Assembly (NCBI GenBank): GCA_040904025.1
Contig: JBBDUG010000004.1
Location: 1 to 52,713, forward strand
From: Minisyncoccota bacterium
Lineage (GTDB): Bacteria; Patescibacteriota; Minisyncoccia; Phycocordibacterales; SW-6-46-9
Reading direction: 5' to 3'
DNA: 52,713 bases
The notes under the pieces were generated by a model. The model searched no databases. It was not told the origin of the DNA and worked only from the letters and a program-made list of their open reading frames with translations. Position numbers and translations under genes: made by a program. Below, one piece after another: positions 35,446 through 51,069 of this stretch (positions within the stretch are counted from its first letter, which is position 1; the number at the start of each line of letters is the position of its first letter).

Positions 35446-35497
35446 GGTAAGTTAAAGATCTAGATTTTCTCTCACGAATTCTCGTGTGAGCAAACAA

Positions 35498-35525: not shown

Positions 35526-35539
35526 TTATTGAAGAGGGG

Positions 35540-35698
35540 ATGCTACACTATCTGTATATGCAGAGCCTGTCCTCATTTACCAAATTTCTCCTCGGCTTCA
35601 TTCTCATCATTGCGATAAGTCTTGTTATCACTTCACTCATACCACCTGATAATCAGGAGGCAGCAGTAGAGGAGTGTGGTGTTGATGAGATCTGTTAG
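35540..35698 (+). CDS. Possible small membrane peptide (52 aa)
   Basis: ORF downstream of the terminator with one TM segment; ribosome-binding-site geometry is poor. Confidence 0.25.
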   Translation: MLHYLYMQSLSSFTKFLLGFILIIAISLVITSLIPPDNQEAAVEECGVDEIC

Positions 35699-35710
35699 AG
35701 GTATAAAACA

Positions 35711-35744
35711 ATCCCCATAGAATCTAATTAGATTCTATGGGGAT
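35711..35744 (-). terminator. Terminator of the yqeY-like gene (perfect 15-bp stem)
   Basis: ATCCCCATAGAATCT-AATT-AGATTCTATGGGGAT. On the minus strand it is followed by TGTTTTAT. Confidence 0.7.
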
Positions 35745-35760
35745 TGAACGTATTTCTGGC

Positions 35761-36213
35761 TTAGTTAAGTACGTCTTGTACGATATCTTTTACTCTATTT
35801 CCATCAGCTCTTCCTTTGACTTCACTCATGACTACCCCCATGAGTTTACCCATATCTGCCATACTTTCTACTCCTGTTTCTTCTTTTTTCTCCTCTACGA
35901 TACTGCGGAGCTCTTCATCTGAGAGTTGTTCTGGGAGATACTCTTCGAGTATCTTAAGTTCCTTCTCTTCTTTTTCTGCAAGGTTGGGTCTATTTCCTTT
36001 CCTAAATTGCTCGATAGAGTCTTTGCGTTGTTTTGCGAGCCGTGTGATTACTTGTATAAGATCATCTTCTTCAAGTTGTTCTGTTGGTTTTCTTTTTTGT
36101 GATACTAGTTCATTTGTTGCTTCGCTCTTAATATTTCTCAATACCGACTTACGCAACTCATCTTTTTCTGTCATGGCTTTCTTTAGGTCTGCCTCTATTT
36201 TTTCTTGTAGCAT
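35761..36213 (-). CDS. GatB/YqeY-domain protein
   Basis: 150 aa. N-terminal L.E.I..DLK.AM..KD..R..VLR.I pattern of the YqeY family. Confidence 0.8.
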   Translation of the reverse strand: MLQEKIEADLKKAMTEKDELRKSVLRNIKSEATNELVSQKRKPTEQLEEDDLIQVITRLAKQRKDSIEQFRKGNRPNLAEKEEKELKILEEYLPEQLSDEELRSIVEEKKEETGVESMADMGKLMGVVMSEVKGRADGNRVKDIVQDVLN

Positions 36214-36263
36214 ATATTATCTTTGATTACCGAGTATGTGTTCCGTATTATACCTCAAAAGCC

Positions 36264-37007
36264 ATGCATGTAAGGGATTCTTTGATATACTGGGAGTATA
36301 TGAAAGATAATAATGCAGTATTCAATAGTGGTTTTTTTGAACAGCGACGGACAATTGAAAGCTTAATTGAAGAGAGTCGAGCAGATACAGATTTCTATCT
36401 TTTTGTATCCTTTGGAGTCTTTATCACTACACTTGGACTCCATATAGATAACGCGATTATTGTTATCGGGGCTATGCTCATCACCCCCATTCTTTTTCCC
36501 ATACTTGCTTTGGGTATGGGAGTCGTGACCTCTTCGCAGGAGTCTATTGGACGATCACTCTCGATTATTCTCAAGACTCTTGTGGTTGGTGTACTTGTTT
36601 CGTTTGTGACCTCCTTTCTTCTCAATCAGCATGAGATGACTGAGCAGATACTCCTTGCATCTACTCCGAACCTCCTCTACTTCTTTATCGCATTTGCTTC
36701 AGGAATCATTGCCTCATACTCATGGGTCAAGCAGTCTATATCTCGTAATTTACCGGGTGTGGCGATCAGTGTTGCATTGGTGCCTCCTCTCTCTGCAATT
36801 GGAGTTGCAATATCACTCTTCTCACAGGATGTATTCTCCGGCTCTATTATGCTCTTTGCTATCAACCTCATCGGTATTGTTCTTGCCGGTATTCTCGTTT
36901 TCTCACTCTTCGGATTTGCCGACTTGCGGCATGTAGAGGAGCGTGAGATACGAGAAGAGAAGCGTGAAGAAGAAGCAGATCGTGTATTAGAGAATCAGCA
37001 TGAATGA
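36264..37007 (+). CDS. DUF389-like hydrophobic-domain membrane protein
   Basis: Multi-TM; GAMLITPILFPILALGMG pattern as recalled for DUF389/TIGR00271. Start may be the internal Met at 36300. Confidence 0.5.
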   Translation: MHVRDSLIYWEYMKDNNAVFNSGFFEQRRTIESLIEESRADTDFYLFVSFGVFITTLGLHIDNAIIVIGAMLITPILFPILALGMGVVTSSQESIGRSLSIILKTLVVGVLVSFVTSFLLNQHEMTEQILLASTPNLLYFFIAFASGIIASYSWVKQSISRNLPGVAISVALVPPLSAIGVAISLFSQDVFSGSIMLFAINLIGIVLAGILVFSLFGFADLRHVEEREIREEKREEEADRVLENQHE

Positions 37008-39670: not shown

Positions 39671-39702
39671 GTAAAGGGGATTAATACCTGTATACTAGAT
39701 AT

Positions 39703-40722
39703 ATGACAGCTGTTGTTATAGTCGGAATAATCATTATTATCCTTCTCGGGGCAGTTCTTTGGCGCCTCTCGTCTGTTGGTGGTGGATCATTTGTACAAAA
39801 AGAAATACAGGATCTACGTCGTACAGTCGATGAGAAGTTGGGGCAGTCTCATGATATTGTTGCCTCTTCAGTTGAGAAGCAATTTAAAGAGTCTCAAAAG
39901 CTCATACAGAATATCACCAAAGAGCTTGAGGGGGTGAAGAAAACAAATGAACAGGTGTTTTCTATAACAGAGTCATTAGGGAATCTTGAAAAGGTTCTGA
40001 AGCATCAGAAGCAGCGGGGGAATTTAGGGGAGCGGGGATTAAAGTTGATTCTTGAGAATATATTGCCACCAAATGCATTTTCCACACAATTCTCATTTGA
40101 TGATGGTACAGCTGTTGATGCGGTGATTCATACAAAGAATGGGATTATTCCCATTGATGCAAAGTTTAGTTTGGATAATTATAATCGGGCGATAGCCGAA
40201 GAAGATGAAGAGAAGAAAGAGCAGTATGAACATGAGTTCAGAAAAGATCTTAAAAAGAGAATAGATGAGACAGCGAAGTATATTCGAGAGAAAGACGGGA
40301 CACTTCCGTTTGCCCTTATGTACATTCCGGCGGAGGGTATCTACTACGATCTTCTTGTTGGCTCTGTTGGTGCTAATGCGCGGGCACGGGACTTGATTGA
40401 GTATGCGTATAGGGATAAGAAGGTGATTATTGTCTCACCGACAACGTTTGTAGCGTATTTGCATACTATTCTGCAGGGATTCCGTGCATTCCAGATAGAG
40501 GAGCGAGCTAAAGAGATAGAGGAGAATGTCCGTAAATTGGGTCGTCATATTGCAACATATGAGGATGCACATGGGCGGTTGGGTAAATCACTCTCTACGA
40601 CTGTGAATCATTACAATCGATCGCGTAAGGAGCTGGGGAAAATGGATAAGGATGTTATGAAAATATCTGGTGATTCTGCGGAGATAGAAGAGATTTTATT
40701 AGATAGGCCAGAGGGGGAATAA
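39703..40722 (+). CDS. rmuC: DNA recombination protein RmuC
   Basis: N-terminal TM, coiled coil, QRGNLGERGL..ILE motif, C-terminal nuclease-like region. Confidence 0.85.
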   Translation: MTAVVIVGIIIIILLGAVLWRLSSVGGGSFVQKEIQDLRRTVDEKLGQSHDIVASSVEKQFKESQKLIQNITKELEGVKKTNEQVFSITESLGNLEKVLKHQKQRGNLGERGLKLILENILPPNAFSTQFSFDDGTAVDAVIHTKNGIIPIDAKFSLDNYNRAIAEEDEEKKEQYEHEFRKDLKKRIDETAKYIREKDGTLPFALMYIPAEGIYYDLLVGSVGANARARDLIEYAYRDKKVIIVSPTTFVAYLHTILQGFRAFQIEERAKEIEENVRKLGRHIATYEDAHGRLGKSLSTTVNHYNRSRKELGKMDKDVMKISGDSAEIEEILLDRPEGE

Positions 40723-40758
40723 AAAGAGCTCTCCGGGTGGGGGAGAGCGGGTCGAGAC

Positions 40759-41112
40759 CTACATATCAGGGGCAACTTTTTTATCCATCATTTTCAGGAC
40801 TTCGAGACGCGTCCTGATGTAGTCGATGGAGATGTTTCCACTGATAGAGTATTTTGATTCGCCGTTTAAAAAGAAGACGAGAGTAGGAGTTTTTCGAATA
40901 CTGAGTTTTTGAGAGAGCTGAATTACCTCTTCGATATCGATTTTGCATGCTGTTGCATGAGGATATGATCGCCCATCGATATCCTTGAGCAGTCTTTCTA
41001 CCCTCCTTGCACTCTTTTCTTCTTCTTCTTCCGAGAAGAAGAGTGCAACGAGAACAGAGGTATTTTTCAGTGCCTTCCCTAGTTCCTTGGCCGATACTTC
41101 TTTGCAGGTCAT
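40759..41112 (-). CDS. Thioredoxin-fold protein lacking the CXXC motif
   Basis: TPTLVFFLNGE pattern of thioredoxins. The CXXC position reads FFSEEEEEKS. Confidence 0.5.
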   Translation of the reverse strand: MTCKEVSAKELGKALKNTSVLVALFFSEEEEEKSARRVERLLKDIDGRSYPHATACKIDIEEVIQLSQKLSIRKTPTLVFFLNGESKYSISGNISIDYIRTRLEVLKMMDKKVAPDM

Positions 41113-41259
41113 GGTCGTGGTTCTTTTATGTTGTGTACAGGATGTCGAGCTAGGGAGAATAATACAGTCAATTACTCATCTAGTCAAGAAGTGTTGATAT
41201 CTCTTCCTCATTGTTGTCTAGAGTACGGTACAATTAAAGGTATAGCATTATCAGTTAAT

Positions 41260-41466
41260 ATGATACACATGCTACATAAGATTTCGTTCCTTCTATTGGT
41301 CATCGGTGGTCTTAACTGGCTTGTCCTTGCAGTGAGTGGATGGGAGATCGGACAGCTATTTGGCGGACAGGATGCACTTATCTCACAGATCATCTATGTA
41401 CTAGTTGGACTTGCAGCAATCGTCGAAGTATTCAAACACAAAGATGCTTGCAAGAAGTGCAACTAA
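41260..41466 (+). CDS. DUF378-family small membrane protein
   Basis: Internal ATG. FLLLVIGGLNWLVLAV....GQLFGG......IYVLVGLAAI pattern. Confidence 0.7.
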   Translation: MIHMLHKISFLLLVIGGLNWLVLAVSGWEIGQLFGGQDALISQIIYVLVGLAAIVEVFKHKDACKKCN

Positions 41467-41478
41467 AGATATATATAC

Positions 41479-41505
41479 AAACCGTCCCGCAAGGGCGGTT
41501 TTGTT
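41479..41505 (+). terminator. Intrinsic terminator
   Basis: ACCGTCCC-GCAA-GGGCGGT followed by TTTTG. Confidence 0.65.
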
Positions 41506-41512
41506 ATTGGAG

Positions 41513-41521
41513 ATATCCACA
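41513..41521 (+). promoter_or_regulatory. DnaA-box-like 9-mer with one mismatch (ATATCCACA)
   Basis: Read from the sequence; TATAAT at 41542-41547. Confidence 0.35.
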
Positions 41522-41597
41522 GTCGGGAAGTGAGGGGATGGTATAATAAATATCTAGAATAGGCTCCTTATCTTCCCAACTATATTGCAGACACATC

Positions 41598-41816
41598 ATG
41601 CCCTTAGAACATCGAAGGGGAACAATCATCCGTGTTCCTGAGACAATAGATGCATTCTTCGATCGACACGAGAGTGATCATGATATCTATACCTCAACAG
41701 CAGATCGAAAGGAGGAAGCAGGTGATACCTCCGGTGCTGAACACTACCGTAAGATAGCCGTGGCTGTCTCTAAGAACCTAGATACATTTAAACAGGTATT
41801 GGAGTTGCCGGCATAG
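41598..41816 (+). CDS. Hypothetical small acidic protein
   Basis: ORF track; followed by a terminator. Confidence 0.45.
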   Translation: MPLEHRRGTIIRVPETIDAFFDRHESDHDIYTSTADRKEEAGDTSGAEHYRKIAVAVSKNLDTFKQVLELPA

Positions 41817-41835
41817 AGCATATGGGTTTGCTCGT

Positions 41836-41866
41836 ACACGCTGATTTAATACATCGGCGTGTTTTT
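41836..41866 (+). terminator. Intrinsic terminator
   Basis: 10-bp stem ACACGCTGAT / ATCGGCGTGT followed by T5. Confidence 0.65.
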
Positions 41867-41886
41867 CTTTCCATTGAGGAGATAGG

Positions 41887-42339
41887 ATGTGGCCAGAACC
41901 GATTGCTGTTGAATTTGAATCAGGTAGGTCTGGTACAATAATCTTAATGAAGGACAAAAAGTCTTTTAACAAATGGAATCGTAAAAAGAAAAAGATTCAT
42001 TATGACAAAGAAAGACCATTTTTTGATGTGCGGGAAGTTTGGTTTGCACATCTGGGGGCTAATGTTGGATATGAACAAGATGGCTCAGGTGGAGAATTCC
42101 TCCGTCCTGTAGTAGTTGTAAAGAAGTTTAACAATGAAATTGGATGGATATTACCTCTAACGAAGACCAGGAAGGATAATAAATATTATTTCAGAGTAGA
42201 TTTTAAAGCAGGGGAGAGCAGGGTGATTTTGTCGCAGATTAAGCTACTTGATGTAAAGCGGTTAAAATATAAAGCAGGGTATCTAAGTGAAGAAGAGTTT
42301 ACTGAATTGAAAAAACGTCTCAGGGATTTCTTATCCTAA
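41887..42339 (+). CDS. PemK/MazF-family toxin-like protein with an N-terminal extension
   Basis: VREVWFAHLGANVGYEQDG....RPVVVV......I..LPLT.......Y.........S.VILSQIKLLDVKRL matches the MazF/PemK fold pattern. GAGGAG Shine-Dalgarno sequence before 41887. Confidence 0.7.
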   Translation: MWPEPIAVEFESGRSGTIILMKDKKSFNKWNRKKKKIHYDKERPFFDVREVWFAHLGANVGYEQDGSGGEFLRPVVVVKKFNNEIGWILPLTKTRKDNKYYFRVDFKAGESRVILSQIKLLDVKRLKYKAGYLSEEEFTELKKRLRDFLS

Positions 42340-42430
42340 GACGTTTTTCTTTATACTCCGCCGAAGCGGAGAGGGCCGAAGCCATTTGTACATATAGACT
42401 AGCATAACCAATAAAAGTTTCAATACCAAA

Positions 42431-42452
42431 AGAACCACCTCTCGGTGGTTCT
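42431..42452. repeat. Hairpin AGAACCACC-TCTC-GGTGGTTCT, near-copy of the hairpin at 43803-43826
   Basis: Read directly. On the minus strand it is followed by TTTTGG. Confidence 0.6.
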
Positions 42453-42556
42453 GATGATTCCAAAACGGAAAAATTTGTTGAGGAGATAGGACGTGGTTGG
42501 AACCAAATACTAGAAGAAGTCGTAAAAACATGGCAAATTCGAGCCGTTTAAATGAC

Positions 42557-42584
42557 TTGACAGCAGTACAAAGGAATGTATAAT
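42557..42584 (+). promoter_or_regulatory. Near-consensus sigma70 promoter
   Basis: TTGACA (42557-42562), 16-nt spacer, TATAAT (42579-42584). A ~100-nt leader follows, containing hairpin AAGTCC-TGAAC-GGACTT plus a T-run. Confidence 0.7.
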
Positions 42585-42688
42585 AACTTATGAAGTAAGT
42601 CCTGAACGGACTTTTTGTACTTTGAGAATGTCCACAGATCGTGGATATACATACTCAGGTTTAACTAACTAAAAGCGAGGGTTTCGCT

Positions 42689-43273
42689 ATGAGAAGCAAC
42701 CACAAGGGTTTTGTGGCCTACTCCAAAGAGCAAGGCGGTGAACATGTCTGGTACGTCAAGGTTGATGAACCTCGTTCTCCCCACCACCTGAAGCCTTGTG
42801 TTGTTGTCAATAGGAATGACAACTTCACTCTTCAGCCCGGTTTGGAGGTCGAGTTCATACTTGATAATCCAGAGGGCACCGATAAGCTCTTTGCACACGC
42901 TGTTGCTCCTCTGATCTCTCGTGTTGAGGGAGAAGCGGAAAGGCGTGTGGATGAGAACAGTGACCCGAAATACGAACTTGTGATCGTAGTGACCAGGTTT
43001 CGTGATGGACGGATACGCGCTGAACTCATCAACTGCATTTCTCGTGAGCAGATCGAGGAAGAATGGCATCGTGAAATGCCTGGTGAAGCAGAAGTAATCG
43101 GCTATCTGCCGTTTACGGAAGCTTTCCAAGGTGTTAATTACGATCACATTCATGTTGATCCGAATGCCAAAGATGCACTGCTTTCACTTGCAGGTGTCGA
43201 TGGGATCCAAGAAGCATTCGAGAGTCTGCTAACGAGGGTGTACAACCTTAACCGAAATGAAAACAAAGACTGA
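42689..43273 (+). CDS. Hypothetical protein, possibly with a degenerate N-terminal cold-shock-like OB module
   Basis: KGFVAY....GGEHVWYVKV ... LQPGLEVEF loosely resembles CSD motifs. C/G-rich third codon positions by eye. Confidence 0.5.
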   Translation: MRSNHKGFVAYSKEQGGEHVWYVKVDEPRSPHHLKPCVVVNRNDNFTLQPGLEVEFILDNPEGTDKLFAHAVAPLISRVEGEAERRVDENSDPKYELVIVVTRFRDGRIRAELINCISREQIEEEWHREMPGEAEVIGYLPFTEAFQGVNYDHIHVDPNAKDALLSLAGVDGIQEAFESLLTRVYNLNRNENKD

Positions 43274-43280
43274 TAAAACC

Positions 43281-43694
43281 ATGTCTTTCCCTAATGGTAA
43301 CTGTGCAGTAATGCGTCATGCTGATGATCGAAGAGGAGGTATTACTGATACTTCGATCCAAGTTCTTCAACGAGTCGCTAAAGATCTGCGTGAGCAGATT
43401 GGCGAAAAGGAGGTGAGAATTTTTCATTCACCGCTTCGTCGCGCGATGTGGACCGCTCAGAATCTTGCCAAGTTTCTCAGGCAAGAGAGCAACACCGCGA
43501 TCATAGCCGGACCTCTGGAATGGCTTTATTGTGGTGAAGAAGCTATCGCACGGCACATTGATGAGTTTGAGGAACCGGAGGACTTCGTAGTCCTCATCTC
43601 TCATCAGCCCGATCTGGAACACTTTCTATGTGTTAGAAGTGGGGTTACGAATTGCTCCCTCTTTGCGAGGGACTTTCGGATAAAGGGTCACTAG
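43281..43694 (+). CDS. SixA-like histidine phosphatase superfamily protein (alternative start at 43257)
   Basis: AVMRHADD (RH. motif), HSPLRRAMWTAQ, ISHQPDLEHF. Confidence 0.7.
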   Translation: MSFPNGNCAVMRHADDRRGGITDTSIQVLQRVAKDLREQIGEKEVRIFHSPLRRAMWTAQNLAKFLRQESNTAIIAGPLEWLYCGEEAIARHIDEFEEPEDFVVLISHQPDLEHFLCVRSGVTNCSLFARDFRIKGH

Positions 43695-43730
43695 ACCCTT
43701 TCCAGCTGCCTGAGTATGCACAAACTACTC

Positions 43731-43768
43731 ACCACCATGTTTCCTTCGGGAGATATGGTGGTTTTTTC
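43731..43768 (+). terminator. Intrinsic terminator
   Basis: 14-bp stem ACCACCATGTTTCC / GGAGATATGGTGGT with TTCG loop, followed by T6. Confidence 0.7.
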
Positions 43769-43802
43769 TTTGGAACTGTATTATTTTCACTAATATAATA
43801 AC

Positions 43803-43826
43803 AGAAACCACCTCTTGGTGGTTTCT
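43803..43826 (-). terminator. Hairpin downstream of tRNA-Met (probable tRNA terminator); near-copy of the hairpin at 42431-42452
   Basis: AGAAACCACC-TCTT-GGTGGTTTCT. Confidence 0.5.
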
Positions 43827-43861
43827 GGCACGAAGTACACAAAGTGCACAATGTTAACTTT

Positions 43862-43932
43862 TGCGGGGGCCGGATTTGAACCGACGTCTGGAGGTTATGA
43901 GCCTCCCGAGGTACCGCTCCTCCACCCCGCGA
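43862..43932 (-). tRNA. tRNA-Met (CAT), probable initiator tRNA-fMet; CCA not encoded
   Basis: The reverse complement folds as a cloverleaf: acceptor CGCGGGG/CCCCGCA with a C1:A72 mismatch, D stem GAGG/CCTC, anticodon stem GGAGG/CCTCC with loop CTCATAA, T arm GTCGG-TTCAAAT-CCGGC. Acceptor and T arms are identical to E. coli tRNA-fMet as I recall it. Only 2 of the 3 usual G:C pairs are present next to the anticodon loop. Confidence 0.85.
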
Positions 43933-44077
43933 TGTTTATTCAATTGTACGACTATTATAGGCGTATGGGGTGTAAAGTCAAAGGGAGAAATGGGTTAGAG
44001 TCTACATCTTTTATGTTATCCCCTTTTACAAAAGGGGATAGTACAGTATCATTTATATATGTAACTGTTCTGTATAT

Positions 44078-44524
44078 ATGAACACTAAGAATAAATACAC
44101 AACTCTCGCTGCTCCGATTGTTGTCATTATCCTCGCAGTCATTTTGCTGTTGCTCGGTCAGGAGACCGAAAGAGCACCACAGGTGACCGAAGAAGTGGGG
44201 GCTGTATCAACACAGCAGAGTGATACATTTGATATTCCGTCCGATCTCCCTATAGATGGTGATATTGAAGAGTCGTATACTACTGGGGGTAATGGATCTA
44301 TAGTACAGGTGATGGTCTATCATTCCGCCTCAACTGTCTCTGCTGTTGCAGAGATGTATACAACCTATTATCAGGAGAACGGATATACACTCCTTGACTC
44401 AAGCCAAGAGAATGGGGTATTGGCGTTTTTAGGTGTTAGCAATGGGACACAGATGACTGTTGTGGGGTATGAGAATGGAGAGAATACACTCGTTGAGGTG
44501 TCGCTGAGGCGATTGGGGGAGTAA
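44078..44524 (+). CDS. Small N-terminally anchored secreted protein, paralog family member 1
   Basis: TM helix, linker, then a ~90-aa domain whose block (VMVYHSASTVSAVAEMYTTYYQENGYTL) resembles the proteins at 46736 and 47390. Confidence 0.6.
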   Translation: MNTKNKYTTLAAPIVVIILAVILLLLGQETERAPQVTEEVGAVSTQQSDTFDIPSDLPIDGDIEESYTTGGNGSIVQVMVYHSASTVSAVAEMYTTYYQENGYTLLDSSQENGVLAFLGVSNGTQMTVVGYENGENTLVEVSLRRLGE

Positions 44525-44556: not shown

Positions 44557-44585
44557 TTGCGTGTAAAAAACCTTTAAGCTATACT
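44557..44585 (+). promoter_or_regulatory. Sigma70-like promoter for the precursor-peptide ORF
   Basis: TTGCGT (44557-44562), 17-nt spacer, TATACT (44580-44585). Confidence 0.5.
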
Positions 44586-44660
44586 AACTATAGCTGGTGG
44601 CTTTAGTTACCGCCCCGCTCTCTTTTTCGTAGTTCTTTTCACTAGACTGGTAATCGACTC

Positions 44661-44849
44661 ATGACCAGCATTCTTTCTGAACATCCCCGAGGTGTACCAC
44701 TTGAGAGCTCTGAATCTCAGGGGGGAGATCACTCGACCACCCAGCCGTTCCTGACTCGCTTTATAGAGCCTCAGGGAATGGCCGGAGGAACCCAAACCTA
44801 CTATGTCTCTGACGGCGGCACTCAGGACATTAAGTGGGATCCCGACTGA
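44661..44849 (+). CDS. Candidate graspetide (microviridin-like) precursor peptide, 62 aa
   Basis: Leader PFLTRFI (44745-44765) resembles the microviridin leader motif PFFARFL. The C-terminus GGTQTYYVSD-GGTQDIKWDPD is rich in Thr/Ser/Lys donors and Asp acceptors. It has its own promoter and terminator and lies beside an MdnC-like ligase. Confidence 0.6.
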   Translation: MTSILSEHPRGVPLESSESQGGDHSTTQPFLTRFIEPQGMAGGTQTYYVSDGGTQDIKWDPD

Positions 44850-44878
44850 GCTTAATCTGGCGGGAAGTTTAAGAAAAG

Positions 44879-44912
44879 CCCCCTGCGTGCAAACACAGGG
44901 GGTTATTTTTTT
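44879..44912. terminator. Bidirectional terminator between the precursor (+) and the ATP-grasp gene (-)
   Basis: CCCCCTG / CAGGGGG hairpin. TTATTTTTTT on the + strand and CTTTTCTT on the - strand. Confidence 0.65.
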
Positions 44913-45865
44913 GTTAGCTTTTCCGCTAGGCTTTTAGCAATGTTGAAATTACAACTATCTTGAATCCACCCCCACCTTCCATTGGGATTTATCTCCAGGA
45001 ACACGTAATCGCCATCTGGTGTAACTATCATATCTATCGCTCCATATATGAGACCAAGATTCTTCACCAGAGATTTGATTTTAGCAGATACTTCCTCTGG
45101 TAAAGAATAAGGGATATAGGAAAGTTCGTTTCCCGCTTTTCTCCAGTCATGTTGAGAAGTAGCGAGTGACTGAGAGTCTATTTTTGCTGAGAAGACTCTT
45201 TCGCCCACTACTGTGATCCGTAATTCATAGGCTTTCTCTACATACTCCTGAAGAAAGAGAGGGCAAGCAGCGATTTGTCTCTCGGAACCCTGTACATCTT
45301 GTTGTGTTATGACGTTTGTATACAGCAGAAGGGGGTCACCCTCGTCCAAAAACACCTGTGTATACAACTGTTTCGCCGCTACTTTCTGATGCTTTGAGAC
45401 AAAATATTTTACTTCCCTCGGGTCATTAGAAATTAGAGTAGCGGGGATTGTTAAGCCAATGCTTTCAGCTGCCCTCAGCTGATACATTTTATTGTCTTCA
45501 ATCAATTTGTTGGCTCGAAGAAGGTCATTGATCCACACCCTGTCTTCAAGAGAGGTATAGAGTGACCACAGTGCAGCGCGTGATTCGTTTTGTATAAATT
45601 TCTTATAACCGACATTTTCCGATTTTTGTGCGGCGGGAAGTGGCTTCCAGTACCAGACGCTTTCTATTTCACATAATGGACGACTAATGCCACATATTGT
45701 GAGTTTCCCTCCCAACGATCCATCGAAAGAAAAAGAAAGGAAATCACGTATTGGGAATAAATGAGGGTAGAAGATAAAGTAAGGTTGTCGCAAGGTCTCC
45801 AACTCATTTAGAACCAATTGAACGACAGGTTCATCTGGATTGGTGATTATCAAGGTATATCCCAT
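44903..45865 (-). CDS. ATP-grasp ribosomal peptide maturase, MdnC/MvdD (microviridin ligase) family
   Basis: YELRITVVGERVFSAKIDSQS.....HDWRK and YGAIDMIVTPDGDYVFLEINPNGRWGWI closely match the hallmark blocks of MdnC as I recall them (ELRITIVGE.IF.A.I.SQ...DWRK; YGAIDMIVTPD..Y.FLEINP.GE). Confidence 0.85.
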   Translation of the reverse strand: MGYTLIITNPDEPVVQLVLNELETLRQPYFIFYPHLFPIRDFLSFSFDGSLGGKLTICGISRPLCEIESVWYWKPLPAAQKSENVGYKKFIQNESRAALWSLYTSLEDRVWINDLLRANKLIEDNKMYQLRAAESIGLTIPATLISNDPREVKYFVSKHQKVAAKQLYTQVFLDEGDPLLLYTNVITQQDVQGSERQIAACPLFLQEYVEKAYELRITVVGERVFSAKIDSQSLATSQHDWRKAGNELSYIPYSLPEEVSAKIKSLVKNLGLIYGAIDMIVTPDGDYVFLEINPNGRWGWIQDSCNFNIAKSLAEKLTKK

Positions 45866-45929
45866 TATTGATCCCTCCTAGCTTGGGGTTGGTTTGTATA
45901 TTACGTTCCTCGCCGATAATACCACACAA

Positions 45930-46448
45930 TTACCTGTTATTAAAACTGTCAAACGCTCTTTTCTTTTGCTCTTCGAAGGTGTCTAATCCTAATTCTTTTC
46001 TACGCTTATTTATATTCTTAGAATCTTCTATTGGATCTACTGAAAGTGTATTATCTTCAAGATTTATATTAAATGATGTCCCGTATAATTGTTTCTTTCC
46101 TTCTCTGATTAAAATACGATCGGTAGTTTTTGCGATCAACTTTGGGTCAATTTCATCTGGAAGCAATTTTCTCATCTCTTTCAGGGCCCTTTTTTGTATT
46201 TCAATATCTTGTAAGTGTTGGACTAACACCCACAGCTCTTCTGGTGTATTTTTTCCATATTGGGATTGTTTTGGCCATCCTATTTTTTCCAGAACCTTCT
46301 CAACAAGAGACTCGCTTTGTTTATCAATTTGAGCATCATAATGGTCTAGAGAGAAATCATGCTCTGACCACACCCTCCTCATGTTTTGGTCAATCGTATA
46401 CTGTTTTTTGATTTCTTGAACCAACCCTTTTTTGTTTGTTGTGTTCAT
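45930..46448 (-). CDS. Hypothetical helical protein, upstream of and co-oriented with the ATP-grasp gene
   Basis: ORF track. 64-nt gap to the ligase gene. ELWVLVQHLQD...Q...L and QLYGTSF patterns. No confident family assignment. Confidence 0.55.
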   Translation of the reverse strand: MNTTNKKGLVQEIKKQYTIDQNMRRVWSEHDFSLDHYDAQIDKQSESLVEKVLEKIGWPKQSQYGKNTPEELWVLVQHLQDIEIQKRALKEMRKLLPDEIDPKLIAKTTDRILIREGKKQLYGTSFNINLEDNTLSVDPIEDSKNINKRRKELGLDTFEEQKKRAFDSFNNR

Positions 46449-46650
46449 ATGAAGAATAATACCCGCATAAGTATGTGTCTACAAATTTAAAAGCAACTTA
46501 ATCAAAAAAAATTGAGGCAGGATCAACAGGTAAGTGAAATAAGGCCTCAGAAGGTGATAGTCGCGAGCACATAATCCTAAATCTGTCTCATAACAATAGA
46601 GGTGATTATACAACCTAGTATAAGCAATCGTGTCTTATTTCTGATGGTGT

Positions 46651-46735: not shown

Positions 46736-47236
46736 ATGGAACAAGAAAACAATAAAGGACTTATCATAGGAGTTGTTGTTATCATCATTCTTGCGGTACT
46801 CTTTCTCCTATTCGGAGGGAGTGCACCAGAGAATACTGGAACAGATGATGATGTAATAGAGGAGACAGAGTCAGCTTCAGAGGGAATCACAGAAGTTGAT
46901 CTAGATACTGCAGAAGGGCTTGATCGGTTTCCTGAAGGATTTCCAACAGATGTACCGGTTGAACCTGCAACGATTGTAAATAGTGTGAACCTCGAGCGTA
47001 ATGATGGTGGCTCTGATGCCATTATCATCTATCGCCCAGACGCAAGTGTGAATGAAGTATATGATGCATTTGTATCCTATATGACAGACGCAGGGTATAC
47101 CATTGAGACAGATAGCCTTGATGGAATGAGAATAGACCTCCAGGGAACAAGTGCAGATGGAGAACTTACGGTATCTTCTATGGAGCTTGAAGGGGAAGGG
47201 ATACTTGAAGTGTTTGTGAACTTTGTTGGGGTATAG
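46736..47236 (+). CDS. Small N-terminally anchored secreted protein, paralog family member 2
   Basis: TM helix, acidic linker, and DLDTAEGLDRFPEGFPTDVPVEPATIVNS block shared with the 47390 protein. Confidence 0.65.
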   Translation: MEQENNKGLIIGVVVIIILAVLFLLFGGSAPENTGTDDDVIEETESASEGITEVDLDTAEGLDRFPEGFPTDVPVEPATIVNSVNLERNDGGSDAIIIYRPDASVNEVYDAFVSYMTDAGYTIETDSLDGMRIDLQGTSADGELTVSSMELEGEGILEVFVNFVGV

Positions 47237-47389: not shown

Positions 47390-47947
47390 ATGGAACAGAC
47401 ACAACCAACAAATGGGAATTCACATGATAATCACAAGGCTCTTACCATTGGTGTTGCCGTTATCGTACTTCTTGTAGCAGTATTTCTGATCTTTGGAAAC
47501 AGAGATACAGGACCAACGGAACAGGATGAAGTAACTCCGGAAAATCAGGAGGAAGAAGTTGTCTTGGGAGACCAGGCTGAAGATGCTCCACGTACTATAG
47601 AAGAAGTTGATCTCACTTCCACAGAAGGACTTGAACGTCTTCCAGAAGGATTCCCTTCTGACACTCCAGTGGATGTTGAGACACTTGTTGACAGTACACA
47701 TATCGTCAATGAAGACGGATCAGAAGAATCACTTGTAGTGTATCTTTCAGATGCAACGATAGGGGAGTTATATGAGAGCTATATCTCATACATAGATGAA
47801 CAGGGCTTCGAGATTGATAGGGATGATTCGACTGATGAGTTTGTGATAATGAATGCATTGCGTGAAAATACTACCATGTCGGTGTCTGCTACACCGTCAG
47901 AAGAAGGGGGTCAGCAAGAGGTGTTTGTAAGGTTTCTTGTGGAATAA
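47390..47947 (+). CDS. Small N-terminally anchored secreted protein, paralog family member 3
   Basis: DLTSTEGLERLPEGFPSDTPVDVETLVDS block and a C-terminal domain parallel to the 46736 protein. Confidence 0.65.
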   Translation: MEQTQPTNGNSHDNHKALTIGVAVIVLLVAVFLIFGNRDTGPTEQDEVTPENQEEEVVLGDQAEDAPRTIEEVDLTSTEGLERLPEGFPSDTPVDVETLVDSTHIVNEDGSEESLVVYLSDATIGELYESYISYIDEQGFEIDRDDSTDEFVIMNALRENTTMSVSATPSEEGGQQEVFVRFLVE

Positions 47948-48020: not shown

Positions 48021-49307
48021 TCAAAGCAGTAGCCGTGGGTGGATATTTCTCAAACCCTCCACAGTTACCGGATCCCTCCGATTTCCATTTGGTTCGAAAA
48101 ATATGAGCTGGTTGAAGTCACCCTCGTAGAGGATCGAAATACCTGATCCGTCTGTTCCGAAGGCAAATTCTCCAATCCCTGCTTCAGTCCCCAGCTCCTC
48201 TCTCGCCTCGAGATCGACGAAGATCGTTGAGATTTCATCTTCCTCGAGTCGCATGAGGCTCGCTGTTGTGACACGCACATCGGTTAATACCGTTATCCGT
48301 GATCCGACCCTCTCGGTTTGATAGAGGCCACTCATAGAGGTGGGAGTTATGTTGAACACTGAATCTGAATCCTCCCTACCATCGTATCTGCGTATGGGGG
48401 CGGAGATATAGAGTGTCCCCGTGTCTGTATCACTGGCAAACCCTGTGGGTACCCCAAAGCAAAACGGTGCATCTTCCGGACGATCACTACAGCTCTCCTT
48501 TGGATACTCTGTAATGTTCCCAGTGTGAGGGTCAAGGGTAAACACTTCAGGAGAGCCCGAATCATGGGCATTCATGTATGCAATCCTTCCGTCAGGAAGC
48601 CATTGCGCCATAATGACACGCCCTTGGATCGTACAGTTTTCTCCCAGATCCTCTGTTAACTCTCCGCGATAGTCGAGGGTCAGCAAGTGATTACAATTGC
48701 TACCTTCCTGGAGGTCAAAAATAAATACCTCCGATCCATCAGGTGAGACAGCAAATCCCTGGAAGGGAGAATGTTGTCCGTACGTTGCCGAGTATCCAAA
48801 CAATTGCTGATATTCACCACTTTCATTGTTAATGTGATAAATGCCATACTCGTTTGGTCCCGTTGTCGCATCGGCAATGGTCAGGGTTTCTTCTACGTTC
48901 TCAAGCGTAAAGATTTCCTGGGATTCCCCCGTCGCTCCCGTGGCCGTAATGGTGAGAGTGGCACCTGCCATGCTCTCTACCGGTATCTCACGAGAGAAGG
49001 AGAGGGAGTTTTCACCTTCCGCAGCGGTCGTGTCAAACGTCTCGCTTCCGTACTCTACCGTGATTGCGTGAAGAGTGTCTTCTACCGAGACATCTACCTC
49101 AAAAGAGGTTGTCTTTCCCGGTCCTGGGACAATCATCCAGGTATCGGTTGAAGTGACGGTGATGGTTGGTGTGTACTCCTCTTCTTCAGGTGTAGGTTGG
49201 TTGTTGGGAGGAGGGTCATTTACCACCCCCGAGTCGCCGCAGCCGATAAGGAGTGTTGTTACGAGAAGGAGGAGTACAAGTACGAGAATTCTGATCAGGC
49301 TCTTCAT
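48021..49307 (-). CDS. Lipoprotein with an N-terminal Ig-like domain and a PD40/TolB-like beta-propeller region, paralog A
   Basis: Signal peptide plus lipobox LLIGC. SPDGSEVFIFD and LPDGRIAYMN repeats. CNHLLTLDYRGELTEDLGENC block shared with paralog B. Confidence 0.7.
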   Translation of the reverse strand: MKSLIRILVLVLLLLVTTLLIGCGDSGVVNDPPPNNQPTPEEEEYTPTITVTSTDTWMIVPGPGKTTSFEVDVSVEDTLHAITVEYGSETFDTTAAEGENSLSFSREIPVESMAGATLTITATGATGESQEIFTLENVEETLTIADATTGPNEYGIYHINNESGEYQQLFGYSATYGQHSPFQGFAVSPDGSEVFIFDLQEGSNCNHLLTLDYRGELTEDLGENCTIQGRVIMAQWLPDGRIAYMNAHDSGSPEVFTLDPHTGNITEYPKESCSDRPEDAPFCFGVPTGFASDTDTGTLYISAPIRRYDGREDSDSVFNITPTSMSGLYQTERVGSRITVLTDVRVTTASLMRLEEDEISTIFVDLEAREELGTEAGIGEFAFGTDGSGISILYEGDFNQLIFFEPNGNRRDPVTVEGLRNIHPRLLL

Positions 49308-49463: not shown

Positions 49464-50912
49464 TTACTCAGTGGAAAGAACAGCGTTCTCCTCGGCCGAG
49501 ATGAGCCGGGGAGTGGTCAGCCGATAAAGACCGGTTATCTCATAAGGCCCCTCGACCATCTGGCCACCTTGTCCGTAGAAGGCGATCTCGTTGCCTGCCT
49601 GGCTAAACGGAATACCCAGTGATACACCCTCTGGAGTGAGGGAGAACTCTTGAGCACCTATCTTATCGATCTTGTATCCTTCCGGATTATTAAGGTCGAT
49701 AAGGATGCGCCCGTATCGCTCTAGTGTATCAATGCGCTCCACTTCACCAACGGCAACACCATCACGGATGTCGTCCAACTTAACCAACCACTTATTAAGC
49801 GGGAAGGTGACGAGACTCTCGTAGGTATTACTACCTTGGGAGAAACGGCCAAATTCTGTCAAAGACTTAACTTCACCGTCCTCCCTCTGCCATGCATGTC
49901 GGGACACATATAAATCTCCCGACTCGGCATAGGCGAGGCCATAGATGCCCGTAAAGCACTTCTCACCCCCTTCAACTTCGGAGCGTGATCTGCACTCGCT
50001 TCGAGTGAGTTGAGTAAGCTCATTTGTTTCGAGGTTTAATTTAAAGGCCTCGACAGTGTTGTGTGCATTAACAACACCACCACCAAATGCAATCTCACTC
50101 CCGTCTGGTGACCACGTGGCATACGTGGCTCTCTCTTTGATTCGACAGTCTTCACCCAGATCCTCTGCTACTTCTCCTCGCCAATCGAGGATCAGCAAGT
50201 GATTACAACCGCTCGTCTCCTTTTTCCAGTCAAATACGAAGTATTTTGACCGGTCAGGGGAGATGCCGAATCCAACGGGCCATGTTTCCTCGGCCGTGTA
50301 AGTGAAGAGTCTTTGAAAGCCCTCTCCATACCTGTCGAGGAGGAATATCCCGTATGTGCCTGCCTGCCACCCGATTGAGGTAATCATCTTGCTGCGGACG
50401 TGGCGCAGGGTGAGTATCCTTTCCCTCTCTCCCGTCACCCCAATCGCTTTGAATGTGAGTCTGGCATCTGCCATGCTCTCCACCTCAATCTTTATCTTGA
50501 AGGCGGTGGAAGAAACAGGGGAGGCAAAGGTGGTGTCCCACTTTAACTCCCCGTCCTCGTTGTGGATCGACATAGAGAGCAAAGTATCACTTACTGCCAC
50601 ATCTATGTCTACGACGATAAACCTATTTGGTCCGGGGACCAAAGGAATACTCTCATCTGTCCACACCCTCTGGAAGCGAGGGTTATACGACTTCGGTTCT
50701 GGATCAGGGTCCGGATTGGGATCGGGTTCTGGATCAGGGTCTGGGTTACAGCCTTCATCCACTGCACCATTCTTATCGTTATCGATATCATCCCCACAGA
50801 TCTCTTCTGTAGGGGGATCAATGATGCTTCCTCCCTCCTTTTCAGGGCTAAGGAGGTCGCATCCGGAAACAACTGCAAAAAGCAGAAGTACCGCAAATAG
50901 TATGCGTTTCAT
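49464..50912 (-). CDS. Lipoprotein with a Cys/Asp-rich metal-binding-like motif, a PDPEP linker, an Ig-like domain and a beta-propeller, paralog B
   Basis: Start at 50912 (MKRILF..VVSGC lipobox) preceded by GGAGG with a 5-nt spacer. CGDDIDNDKNGAVDEGC motif. SPDGSEIAF repeat. Shares blocks with paralog A. Confidence 0.7.
   Translation of the reverse strand: MKRILFAVLLLFAVVSGCDLLSPEKEGGSIIDPPTEEICGDDIDNDKNGAVDEGCNPDPDPEPDPNPDPDPEPKSYNPRFQRVWTDESIPLVPGPNRFIVVDIDVAVSDTLLSMSIHNEDGELKWDTTFASPVSSTAFKIKIEVESMADARLTFKAIGVTGERERILTLRHVRSKMITSIGWQAGTYGIFLLDRYGEGFQRLFTYTAEETWPVGFGISPDRSKYFVFDWKKETSGCNHLLILDWRGEVAEDLGEDCRIKERATYATWSPDGSEIAFGGGVVNAHNTVEAFKLNLETNELTQLTRSECRSRSEVEGGEKCFTGIYGLAYAESGDLYVSRHAWQREDGEVKSLTEFGRFSQGSNTYESLVTFPLNKWLVKLDDIRDGVAVGEVERIDTLERYGRILIDLNNPEGYKIDKIGAQEFSLTPEGVSLGIPFSQAGNEIAFYGQGGQMVEGPYEITGLYRLTTPRLISAEENAVLSTE
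50695..50754 (-). repeat. 30-bp tandem repeat (GGTTCTGGATCAGGGTC core, 2 copies) encoding the PDPEPDPNPD linker
   Basis: The core string occurs at 50695 and again at 50725. Confidence 0.7.
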
Positions 50913-51069
50913 AGCGACCTCCACGGTCTTATTCGAGTTTCTACGTGTCAATGAGTGTCTAATGTGTATTATACAACACTCTAGAATAAATGTCTACCTT
51001 GTTTTTATCAAAACAAAGGGGGTTAAAATAGTGTTTAAAGATGGGGTTTATTAACTAAGATGTTTCCTG

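What the first reader, a model, noticed from the sequence alone, without database searches (positions are those of the whole stretch)
44557..46448. Microviridin-like graspetide (RiPP) locus: MdnC/MvdD-type ATP-grasp ligase plus a convergent 62-aa precursor with a PFFARFL-like leader and a non-canonical core
Seen in sequence: the 320-aa minus-strand protein (44903..45865) carries the blocks ELRITVVGERVFSAKIDSQS..HDWRK and YGAIDMIVTPDGDYVFLEINPNG. These are nearly identical to the hallmark blocks of the microviridin ligases MdnC/MvdD. A + strand 62-aa ORF (44661..44849) ends 54 nt before the ligase stop, and the two share a bidirectional terminator. The ORF has its own TTGCGT-17-TATACT promoter. 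Its residues 29-35 are PFLTRFI. Established knowledge: microviridin-type ligases recognise a conserved leader helix PFFARFL, and graspetide cores are Thr/Ser/Lys plus Asp/Glu rich. The C-terminus here, GGTQTYYVSD-GGTQDIKWDPD, looks like two GGTQ-initiated half-cores. It does not fit the canonical T.K.PSD.(E/D)(E/D) microviridin core. Only one ligase is present, whereas microviridins use two, and no GNAT or ABC transporter is adjacent. Inference: this is a minimal, possibly new graspetide class in a reduced-genome (CPR-like) organism, with an unusual convergent precursor/ligase arrangement. The co-oriented 172-aa upstream gene (45930..46448) may be part of the system.
Basis: partly seen in the sequence, partly recalled or inferred. 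Interest (0 to 1): 0.85.

Follow-up and report, generated by a model that had tools for sequence, protein, structure and literature searches.

The report
Three-gene graspetide peptide cassette, CPR bacterium
This is a real but so far only predicted type of small gene cassette, in an ultra-small Paceibacterota (CPR) bacterium, that most likely makes a ribosomal peptide cross-linked by an ATP-grasp enzyme; cassettes of this kind were already catalogued in 2022 and 2026, so this one is a new member rather than a new class.

Summary
All three ORFs lie at the stated coordinates. The 320-aa protein is a RiPP ATP-grasp macrocyclase: it scores E 1e-63 to 1e-68 against the NCBIfam graspetide maturase models and only 1e-11 against RimK, and 1.4e-46 against the MdnC structure.

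The convergent 62-aa ORF is a true gene. I found 15 representatives of its family. The invariant residues are leader P29 and core G43, T46, D56, D60 and C-terminal D62. The shared core is GGxQTYxATGxxQD(I/V)x(W/F)DPD-COOH. Conserved residues show synonymous codon changes, and the antisense ORF is broken in 5 of 7 homologues.

In all 10 independent loci the precursor faces the ligase across a bidirectional hairpin terminator. DUF6624 sits next to the ligase in all 5 loci with enough flank. No protease or exporter is conserved.

The "new class" reading fails. Makarova et al. 2022 described CPR graspetide loci with the Phhx(1,2)h leader, the TxxxTx(6-10)Dx(1-4)D core and an uncharacterised partner protein. 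Carter et al. 2026 define group 42 (candidate phyla, 82% with DUF6624). The "two GGTQ half-cores" are specific to this window, and the promoter match is weak.

Verdict: new member, with a new precursor subfamily, of a known but uncharacterised kind. The role of DUF6624 remains open.

The parts
44557..44585 (+). Promoter-like TTGCGT-17-TATACT upstream of the precursor gene (weak)
   Evidence: Read directly from the sequence. It matches 3/6 + 5/6 of the consensus and was not reported by the scan. It is not more than chance would give.
44661..44849 (+). Graspetide precursor gene, 62 aa. Leader is about residues 1-43, with R10 and P29-F-L-T-R-F-I. G42-G43 is the junction. The core is T44-D62: TQTYYVSDGGTQDIKWDPD-COOH.
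   Evidence: ORF. A 15-member family has invariant P29, G43, T46, D56, D60 and D62. Invariant residues show synonymous codon variation, and the antisense frame carries stops in 5 of 7 homologues. There is no Shine-Dalgarno sequence upstream, unlike in the homologues.
44879..44902 (.). Bidirectional intrinsic terminator: a G+C-rich hairpin flanked by an A-run and a T-run, between the convergent precursor and ligase genes
   Evidence: The scan reports 10 pairs, 7 of them G-C. RNAfold gives -23.7 kcal/mol for the intergenic stretch. An equivalent A-tract/hairpin/T-tract lies in the same position in L005/L088, L006, L009, L091, L093, L096 and L100.
44903..45865 (-). ATP-grasp graspetide synthetase (macrocyclase), 320 aa, with a Shine-Dalgarno AGGAGGG at 45873-45879
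   Evidence: NCBIfam: TIGR04187 1.3e-68, MvdC 1.3e-64, MvdD 3.6e-63, RimK 1.3e-11. PDB: MdnC 5ig9 1.4e-46, AMdnB, CdnC, MdnB, PsnB. It keeps all 41 columns that are invariant among 18 homologues, including the ELRIT and D..E.N motifs.
45930..46448 (-). DUF6624 protein, 172 aa, co-transcribed upstream of the ligase. It is a conserved partner of unknown function and has no signal peptide.
   Evidence: Pfam PF20329, E 4.7e-15. It lies next to related ligases in 16 of the fetched loci and in all 5 WDPD-type loci with enough flank. Invariant residues are D20, R24, D42, Q77, H78, D110, R111, K118, Q120, G123, T124, F126 and R150.
46453..46481 (-). Promoter-like TAGACA-17-TATTCT directly upstream of the DUF6624 start codon (consensus match only)
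   Evidence: It is one of 4 hits, against 7.0 expected in shuffles, so it is not evidence of function.

Best explanation
This is a self-contained three-gene graspetide (omega-ester RiPP) cassette in a Candidatus Paceibacterota genome. Its layout is precursor(+) -> terminator <- ATP-grasp ligase(-) <- DUF6624(-).

Proposed mechanism. The 62-aa precursor is translated. The ligase docks on the leader, at the Phhxxh element P29-FLTRF-I35 and possibly also at a second conserved element around R10. It then activates Asp side-chain carboxylates of the C-terminal core as acyl phosphates, using ATP. The hydroxyls of T46 and S50 (Thr in nearly all relatives) attack these intermediates. The result is at least two side-chain macrolactones onto two of the three invariant acceptors D56, D60 and the C-terminal D62. 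The donor/acceptor order T-x3-(T/S)-x9-D-x-D suggests a nested, hairpin-like bicycle.

A conserved Lys donor is absent, because position 54 is K, T or V across the family. A lactam is therefore not a family feature. The conserved GG just before the core is the likely leader/core junction.

DUF6624 is an obligatory companion. Its role could be partner protein, tailoring enzyme or leader peptidase, but it is unknown. Leader removal and export are not encoded in the cassette.

What is shown: gene content, homology, conservation, coding status and architecture. What is inferred: the chemistry, the ring pattern and the function of DUF6624.
For: Ligase identity. The graspetide maturase models score 214-231 bits (E 1e-63 to 1e-68), against 44 bits for RimK. 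The six PDB matches with E < 1e-3 are graspetide macrocyclases (MdnC, AMdnB, CdnC, MdnB, PsnB) and one MvdD-like pre-ATP-grasp domain protein (9bou). The window protein keeps every column that is invariant among 18 homologues.

Precursor reality. Profile searches of 5.8 and 1.84 billion proteins recover only small proteins of 57-71 aa with the same leader and core at high significance, giving 15 representatives. Codon-level synonymous variation at invariant residues supports coding, and the antisense frame is interrupted in 5 of 7 homologues.

Linkage. The precursor is convergent with the ligase in 10 of 10 independent loci, 53-70 nt apart in most of them, with a hairpin terminator between. 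DUF6624 is adjacent in all 5 loci with enough flank. The flanking genes differ in every locus, so the three genes travel together. In L098 the cassette lies beside a relaxase and a T4SS coupling protein.

Mechanism. Acyl-phosphate chemistry with Ser/Thr/Lys donors and Asp/Glu acceptors is established for graspetide synthetases (PMC13097080, Introduction).

Pattern match. The leader fits Phhx(1,2)h and the core fits TxxxTx(6-10)Dx(1-4)D, both given for CPR branch 1 (PMC8939145).
Against: - No product has been observed. No CPR graspetide has been characterised in the literature I could search.
- The ligase scores below the curated cut-offs of every specific NCBIfam family (231 against 350 bits), and its best homologue is only 43% identical.
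- The window's precursor has no Shine-Dalgarno sequence and only a weak promoter match, unlike its homologues. Expression in this genome is therefore uncertain.
- The ring pattern is a guess from conservation alone.
- The AF2 model of the free precursor is essentially disordered, with only a 3-residue helical turn at residues 30-32 and mean pLDDT 62.
- The function of DUF6624 could not be approached. The single-sequence model failed (pLDDT 38), and there is no PDB or distant Pfam relative.
Confidence: 0.8

Rival explanations
1. The cassette is a decaying or silent copy in this genome. The ligase and DUF6624 genes are intact, but the precursor is poorly expressed or not expressed, so no product is made here.
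For: The window's precursor lacks the GGAGG-type Shine-Dalgarno sequence present upstream of 8 of 9 homologous precursors. The promoter match is 3/6 + 5/6 only. The second donor is Ser rather than the near-invariant Thr. The window ligase is a long branch, at most 43% identical to any relative. In another member (L093/L094) the ligase is split into two ORFs.
Against: All three ORFs are full length. All family-invariant residues of the precursor, and all columns that are invariant among ligase homologues, are retained. The ligase has a strong Shine-Dalgarno sequence (AGGAGGG). The terminator is intact.
Confidence: 0.1
2. The small ORF is not the ligase substrate. The ATP-grasp enzyme ligates amino acids or modifies another protein in the RimK/GshB manner, and the small ORF is an unrelated conserved micro-protein.
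For: Pfam gives only weak RimK (E 5.2e-5) and MvdD pre-ATP-grasp (E 4.8e-5, below the gathering score) matches for the window protein. No modification has been demonstrated.
Against: NCBIfam graspetide models outscore RimK by about 55 orders of magnitude in E-value. The top PDB matches are graspetide macrocyclases. The small ORF carries the class-typical Phhxxh leader and a core rich in Thr and Asp that ends in D-x-D. It is linked to the ligase in 10 of 10 loci.
Confidence: 0.03
3. This is a genuine microviridin-type system whose second ligase, GNAT and transporter are encoded elsewhere in the genome.
For: The ligase is most similar to MdnC among solved structures. The leader PFLTRFI resembles PFFARFL.
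Against: The core lacks TxKxPSDx(E/D)(E/D). No Lys is conserved in the family. The MvdC and MvdD equivalog cut-offs are missed by about 200-260 bits. Only one ligase lies in 52.7 kb. All 10 related loci have the same minimal layout without a GNAT or ABC transporter.
Confidence: 0.02

Closest known systems
CPR graspetide loci, ATP-grasp 'branch 1', of Makarova et al. 2022 (Biol Direct 17:7, PMC8939145). The nearest precursor is cluster1472 (Giovannonibacteria/Parcubacteria): MLKQQEMPFALRFAEPLMSQEEISSGILDKGIFMATVQTTVYATGKYGADSKSDPD
   Same: The host is a CPR bacterium. There is a single ATP-grasp ligase of about 330 aa. The leader fits Phhx(1,2)h (PFLTRF). The core fits TxxxTx(6-10)Dx(1-4)D and ends in DPD-COOH. 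An uncharacterised conserved protein ('cluster 23', with marked conserved His, Asp and Arg/Asn positions) is encoded next to the ligase. Cluster1472 shares the QT..YATG...DPD-COOH skeleton.
   Different: The GGxQTYxATGxxQD(I/V)x(W/F)DPD subfamily is not in the supplementary files of that paper held here: WDPD, QTYY and QTYT give 0 hits. Here the precursor is convergent and downstream of the ligase. In most related loci it is co-oriented and upstream. That cluster 23 equals DUF6624 is my inference and was not shown. The CPR copies have no signal peptide, whereas many cluster 23 proteins are lipoproteins.
Graspetide group 42, and the other DUF6624-rich groups 18, 20 and 23, of Carter, Ramesh, Saad, Mubarik and Mitchell 2026 (ACS Chem Biol 21:698, PMC13097080)
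   Same: Group 42 comprises 22 BGCs, many from candidate phyla. The only recurrent genes are the graspetide synthetase and DUF6624 (82%). That is the gene content of this cassette. The authors flag DUF6624 as a possible undiscovered biosynthetic enzyme.
   Different: The group 42 representative precursor is from Ca. Komeilibacteria: MKKNSTPKPLILDRLRQPIEDIYKGGEKAMEGFTTHGTPNDPDSGGTD. It is not detectably similar by phmmer to this family. Only a loose T-x-x-G-x-P-x-D ... DPD resemblance to divergent members (P0144, P0149) can be seen by eye. Membership in the sequence-similarity network could not be tested.
Microviridin biosynthesis (MdnA-E / MvdA-E): MdnC and MdnB ligases, PFFARFL leader
   Same: The enzyme fold and catalytic motifs are shared: MdnC 5ig9 at E 1.4e-46, with near-identical ELRITVVG and YGAIDMIVTP..FLEINP blocks. 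Recognition is leader-helix-guided, with PFLTRFI against PFFARFL. Thr/Ser-to-Asp ester chemistry is expected.
   Different: There is one ligase instead of two. There is no TxKxPSDx(E/D)(E/D) core, no conserved Lys and so no lactam, and no GNAT or ABC transporter. The scores are below the MvdC/MvdD equivalog cut-offs. The precursor is convergent rather than co-directional.
Partner-protein-dependent graspetides: rosaritide MirB/MirC (Carter et al. 2026)
   Same: A graspetide synthetase is strictly co-encoded with one extra small protein that is not an obvious tailoring enzyme. This gives a precedent for such a protein being required for ligase stability and activity.
   Different: MirC is a PpiC-type PPIase or chaperone-domain protein from Actinomycetota. 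DUF6624 is unrelated, mainly helical, and carries invariant polar residues suggestive of catalysis. No experiment links it to ligase activity.

Membership tests
Graspetide (omega-ester/amide RiPP) biosynthetic gene cluster | ATP-grasp ligase of the MvdC/MvdD/graspetide-synthetase clade rather than the RimK/GshB clade | tested here: met
   TIGR04187 1.3e-68, MvdC 1.3e-64, MvdD 3.6e-63, against RimK 1.3e-11. PDB hits are MdnC, AMdnB, CdnC, MdnB and PsnB. The score is below the curated cut-offs of each individual model.
Graspetide (omega-ester/amide RiPP) biosynthetic gene cluster | Adjacent small precursor with a conserved leader and a core holding Ser/Thr/Lys donors and Asp/Glu acceptors | tested here: met
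   The 62-aa ORF belongs to a 15-member family with invariant P29, T46, D56, D60 and D62. It is linked to the ligase in 10 of 10 loci.
Graspetide (omega-ester/amide RiPP) biosynthetic gene cluster | Side-chain macrolactone or macrolactam cross-links in the product | not testable with these tools
   This needs co-expression and mass spectrometry.
Microviridin (graspetide group 1) | Core motif TxKxPSDx(E/D)(E/D) | tested here: not met
   The core is TQTYYVSDGGTQDIKWDPD. It has no KYPSD, and no Lys is conserved in the family.
Microviridin (graspetide group 1) | Two dedicated ligases (ester-forming MdnC/MvdD and amide-forming MdnB/MvdC) plus a GNAT and an ABC transporter | tested here: not met
   One ATP-grasp gene lies in 52.7 kb. 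The neighbours have no GNAT or ABC domains. The equivalog cut-offs are missed: 218 against 425 bits and 214 against 475 bits.
Microviridin (graspetide group 1) | PFFARFL leader recognition motif | tested here: inconclusive
   PFLTRFI shares P, F, R and F and fits the general graspetide Phhx(1,2)h motif. Only P29 is invariant in the family. Binding was not tested.
CPR graspetide loci, branch 1 (Makarova et al. 2022) | Host from the candidate phyla radiation | tested here: met
   Three window proteins fall in clusters at >=90% identity with proteins of a Ca. Paceibacterota MAG, and the DNA is 98.2% identical over 14.9 kb. Ligase and precursor homologues are named Pacebacteria, Parcubacteria and Kaiserbacteria.
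CPR graspetide loci, branch 1 (Makarova et al. 2022) | Leader Phhx(1,2)h and core TxxxTx(6-10)Dx(1-4)D | tested here: met
   The leader is P29-F-L-T-R-F. The core is T46-YYV-S50-x9-D60-P-D62, with Ser in place of the second Thr in the window and Thr in the other family members. The signature is as quoted.
CPR graspetide loci, branch 1 (Makarova et al. 2022) | Ligase falls inside the published branch 1 subtree | not tested
Indirect evidence: L082 carries the cluster4012 precursor and P0081 (UX26_C0006G0002) neighbours the cluster6190 precursor (UX26_C0006G0003). Both precursor clusters are in that paper's precursor set, and cluster4012 is listed under Branch_1. Both ligases are among the relatives found here. 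My own NJ bootstraps do not resolve the deep nodes.
Graspetide group 42 (Carter et al. 2026) | Co-occurrence with DUF6624 and no other recurrent gene | tested here: met
   PF20329 at E 4.7e-15, directly upstream of the ligase. The same holds in L005/L088, L096, L098 and L100. The group 42 table is quoted.
Graspetide group 42 (Carter et al. 2026) | Ligase clusters with group 42 in the SSN at alignment score 70, and the precursor matches the group logo | not testable with these tools
   The SSN members and the logo are not held as text. The single representative precursor shows no significant similarity.

The most novel reading that the evidence does not exclude
DUF6624 is the missing second activity of a minimal, mobile three-gene graspetide module. 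It would be either an obligate partner that docks on the second conserved leader element (the R10 region) and enables the ligase, or a new type of leader peptidase or tailoring enzyme built on the invariant D20, Q77-H78, D110-R111, K118-x-Q120 and T124 residues. If so, the streamlined CPR cassette would be the simplest system in which to discover the function of a protein family that recurs across graspetide groups 18, 20, 23 and 42. It would also yield the first characterised natural product of a CPR bacterium.
Probability: 0.3. Interest if true: 0.6.

Novelty: new member of a known kind. Interest (0 to 1): 0.3.

Why it matters
CPR/Patescibacteria have tiny genomes and almost no recognised secondary metabolism. 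No CPR graspetide has been made or assayed. This window supplies a clean, complete and very small example, about 1.9 kb with three genes. Its precursor family is well defined, with invariant donors and acceptors, so the ring pattern can be predicted and tested.

The cassette also isolates DUF6624 as the only accessory gene. That makes it a convenient test bed for a protein family that two large surveys flagged as a probable unknown biosynthetic enzyme.

The conserved convergent placement of the precursor is a practical point for genome mining. A search that looks only in the ligase's own directon would not find it. In Makarova et al. 2022, many CPR branch 2 loci were left without an identified precursor.

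None of this changes the current picture of graspetide biology. It fills in one more subfamily.

Tried and rejected
- The first word-indexed search with the precursor alone found only itself. The profile of four precursors was needed.
- DUF6624 structure. Single-sequence AF2 gave pLDDT 38 and is unusable. A profile search of the PDB gave nothing (best E 0.82). Scans of 10 members against Pfam gave only DUF6624 itself. No fold search was therefore run.
- The AF2 model of the precursor with 15 sequences is essentially coil, with a 3-residue helical turn at residues 30-32. That is weak support at best for a leader helix.
- Monophyly of the ligases that go with WDPD-type precursors is not resolved: NJ bootstrap support is 3-6%.
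- The three membrane-anchored paralogues flanking the cassette were tested as candidate cassette members. They have no homologues in about 100 related loci, so I rejected them.
- I tried to see whether the 98%-identical sister MAG carries the cassette. Its contig ends at window position 44109, about 550 nt before the precursor start.
- The group 42 representative precursor has no significant match among the fetched loci.
- Ligase relatives on IMG/VR contigs are only 29-35% identical, and I did not pursue them.
- "Two half-cores" is rejected on the family alignment.
Full report
**1. Observation**

The 62-aa ORF is at 44661..44849 (+), the 320-aa ORF at 44903..45865 (-), and the 172-aa ORF at 45930..46448 (-). 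The small protein is MTSILSEHPRGVPLESSESQGGDHSTTQPFLTRFIEPQGMAGGTQTYYVSDGGTQDIKWDPD, with PFLTRFI at residues 29-35.

The two convergent stop codons are 53 nt apart. Between them lies a 10-bp, G+C-rich hairpin (44879-44902) with an A-run on one side and a T-run on the other.

TTGCGT-17-TATACT is present at 44557-44585. It is only a 3/6 + 5/6 match to the consensus. The consensus scan found fewer promoter-like sites in this region than in shuffled sequence (4 against a mean of 7.0), so I give it no weight.

**2. The ligase**

NCBIfam places the 320-aa protein with the RiPP ATP-grasp maturases:

| Model | E-value |
|---|---|
| GRASP_SAV_5884 (TIGR04187) | 1.3e-68 |
| MvdC | 1.3e-64 |
| MvdD | 3.6e-63 |
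| grasp-with-spasm | 1.8e-35 |
| RimK | 1.3e-11 |
| Glutathione synthase | 5.5e-4 |

- It falls below the curated cut-off of each specific family (231 against 350 bits), so it is a divergent member of the superfamily and not an equivalog of any named enzyme.
- Against solved structures, the matches below E 1e-3 are MdnC (5ig9, 1.4e-46), AMdnB, CdnC, MdnB, an MvdD-like protein (9bou) and PsnB.
- Its nearest relatives among 5.8 billion proteins are only 43% identical. The named ones come from Pacebacteria and Parcubacteria.
- It keeps all 41 columns that are invariant among 18 homologues.

**3. The small ORF is a real, conserved precursor**

- Close ligase homologues carry a 60-62-aa ORF in the same convergent position, ending in the same motif. 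The first examples were L005, L006 and L009.
- A profile of these four recovered four more from 5.8 billion proteins. An exhaustive HMMER pass over 1.84 billion representatives added seven.
- In the 15-sequence alignment the invariant positions are M1, P29, G43, T46, D56, D60 and D62. Near-invariant positions are R10, E36, G42, Q45, T50 (Ser in the window) and P61.
- The family consensus is ...PR(V/I)V...PFxLxFLE...GG(H/C/T)QTYxATGxxQD(I/V)x(W/F)DPD-COOH.
- At the DNA level, invariant residues are encoded by varying synonymous codons: GGA/GGT, CAA/CAG, ACC/ACA/ACT, TAC/TAT, GAC/GAT and CCC/CCA/CCT.
- The antisense frame that is open in the window (44607..44795) carries 1-4 stops in five of seven homologues.
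The plus-strand ORF is the gene.

**4. Architecture**

I could examine ten independent loci of this precursor type: the window, L005/L088-90, L006, L009, L091/92, L093/94, the P0128 contig, L096/97, L098/99 and L100/101.

- In all ten the precursor faces the ligase.
- In eight the two genes are 53-70 nt apart and separated by an A-tract/hairpin/T-tract terminator.
- In L098 the spacer is 143 nt and AT-rich.
- In the P0128 contig a 268-aa gene intervenes.
- DUF6624 lies next to the ligase in all five loci with enough flank. It is co-oriented upstream in the window, L005/L088, L098 and L100, and divergent in L096.
- The genes beyond these three differ in every locus. L098 lies beside a relaxase and a T4SS coupling protein.
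- No protease, PCAT or other transporter is conserved, and none is near the cassette in the window.
- The unit is therefore a three-gene, probably mobile cassette.
- In more distant relatives of the ligase the precursor is usually upstream and co-oriented. The convergent layout is a feature of this subfamily.
- The ligases of the subfamily tend to group together in NJ trees, but the deep nodes have no bootstrap support.

**5. Host**

Three housekeeping proteins of the window sit in clusters at >=90% identity with proteins of a Candidatus Paceibacterota MAG. That MAG's contig is 98.2% identical to window 27002-41878. The CPR assignment is therefore supported. The sister contig ends at window 44109, so I cannot say whether it carries the cassette.

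**6. Mechanism (inferred)**

Graspetide synthetases bind a leader helix. They phosphorylate Asp/Glu side chains with ATP and direct a Ser/Thr/Lys side chain onto the acyl phosphate (PMC13097080, Introduction).

- Here the conserved donors are T46 and T/S50, and the conserved acceptors are D56, D60 and the terminal D62.
- Lys at position 54 is replaced by T or V in several members, and K58 is not conserved. A lactam is therefore not a family feature.
- I predict two macrolactones, possibly three, within the last 17 residues. The T-x3-T/S-x8-9-D-x-D order suggests a nested pattern.
- The conserved GG immediately before the core is the likely leader/core boundary.
- The second "GGTQ" in the window is not conserved (GAKQ, GSKQ, DGKQ and GTTQ in relatives). 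The "two half-cores" idea is therefore rejected.
- A second conserved leader element around R10 is unexplained. It might be a docking site for DUF6624.

Caveats for this particular genome:
- The precursor has no Shine-Dalgarno sequence, although eight of nine homologues have a clear one.
- Ser replaces the near-invariant second Thr.

**7. DUF6624**

- The window protein matches PF20329 (E 4.7e-15).
- It has no signal peptide.
- It shares invariant D20, R24, D42, Q77, H78, D110, R111, K118, Q120, G123, T124, F126 and R150 with homologues from ligase loci.
- Its fold could not be obtained.
- Its function remains open. Partner protein, tailoring enzyme and leader peptidase are all possible.

**8. 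Comparison with what is known**

Makarova et al. 2022 (PMC8939145) described two CPR branches of graspetide ATP-grasp enzymes. Their features are the Phhx(1,2)h leader, the TxxxTx(6-10)Dx(1-4)D core, occasional TPR and metallopeptidase neighbours (as seen here in L004), and an uncharacterised "cluster 23" protein with marked conserved His, Asp and Arg/Asn positions.

- The window's precursor fits both motifs.
- Their cluster1472 precursor (...VQTTVYATGKYGADSKSDPD, branch 1) is visibly related to the present core.
- The WDPD subfamily itself is absent from the supplementary text held.

Carter et al. 2026 (PMC13097080) extended the classification to 43 groups.

- They found DUF6624 at high frequency in groups 18, 20, 23 and 42.
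- They called it a possible undiscovered biosynthetic enzyme.
- They define group 42 as 22 BGCs, many from candidate phyla, whose only recurrent partner is DUF6624 (82%).
- The gene content and taxonomy of the present cassette match group 42.
- The representative group 42 precursor is not detectably similar, and SSN membership could not be tested.

The locus is not a microviridin system. It has one ligase, no KYPSD core, no conserved Lys, no GNAT or ABC transporter, and it scores below the MvdC/MvdD cut-offs.

**9. Verdict**

The claim of a new class is not supported. This is a new member, with a previously uncatalogued precursor subfamily and a conserved convergent layout, of a kind already described bioinformatically but never characterised.

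Interest is modest (0.3). The most interesting open question it offers is the function of DUF6624, in what is about the smallest graspetide cassette one could ask for.

Noticed in passing
window 16769-20275 (+): A 1168-aa class I aminoacyl-tRNA synthetase (Pfam tRNA-synt_1, 4.6e-137, in two stretches) carries an inserted histidine-phosphatase domain (His_Phos_1, E 2.2e-32) at residues 510-678. This is an unusual insertion for this enzyme family.
   Followed up: no
window 44078-44524, 46736-47236, 47390-47947 (all +): Three paralogous small proteins with an N-terminal membrane anchor flank the graspetide cassette on both sides (phmmer 1e-4 to 1e-29 among them). They have no homologues in about 100 related ligase loci. 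The cassette appears to sit inside this paralogue array.
   Followed up: partly
window 41879-44109, compared with L095 (GCA_040879565.1 JBBDKA010000004.1): A 98.2%-identical Ca. Paceibacterota contig is colinear with window 27002-41878. It carries a different PemK-toxin allele in place of window 41879-42373. It lacks window 42484-43860 (1.38 kb, two ORFs), which lies next to tRNA-Met (43860-43932, -). It ends at 44109, just before the cassette. This is a variable hotspot next to a tRNA.
   Followed up: partly
L005 149-2006 and L088 3348-5205: The same contig that carries a WDPD-type cassette has a second DUF6624 + ATP-grasp pair. With it comes a different small ORF (…MPITFNFGEPVNYGQEIVEMATSFAGEETITRPGGGYDTGA) that resembles Makarova cluster1029/2658 precursors. 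L088 also has a third DUF6624 upstream of the WDPD precursor.
   Followed up: partly
L098 4001-8189: Here the precursor/ligase/DUF6624 cassette lies directly beside a relaxase and a T4SS coupling protein (TraG/TrwB-like). This suggests carriage on a conjugative element.
   Followed up: no
L093 299-1107 and L094: In this family member the convergent ligase is split into a 54-aa C-terminal ORF and a separate upstream fragment. This is either a pseudogene or an assembly error.
   Followed up: no
window 44661-44700 (precursor residues about 8-13) and alignment A5: A second conserved leader element, (P)R(V/I)(V/I) with near-invariant R10, lies about 18 residues upstream of the PFxLxF motif. Its role is unknown. 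It might be a docking site for DUF6624.
   Followed up: no
window 44616-44663: The window's precursor gene has no recognisable Shine-Dalgarno sequence. Eight of nine homologous precursors have GGAGG-like sites 6-10 nt upstream of the ATG, and the adjacent ligase has AGGAGGG.
   Followed up: partly
window 48021-49307 (-) and 49464-50951 (-): These are two paralogous large proteins (phmmer 5e-52). The first has a lipoprotein-like N-terminus (…LLIGCGDSG). Neither has a Pfam family.
   Followed up: no
L102-L109 (IMG/VR contigs): Eight contigs classed as viral encode ATP-grasp relatives of this ligase at 29-35% identity. Their contexts were not examined.
   Followed up: no
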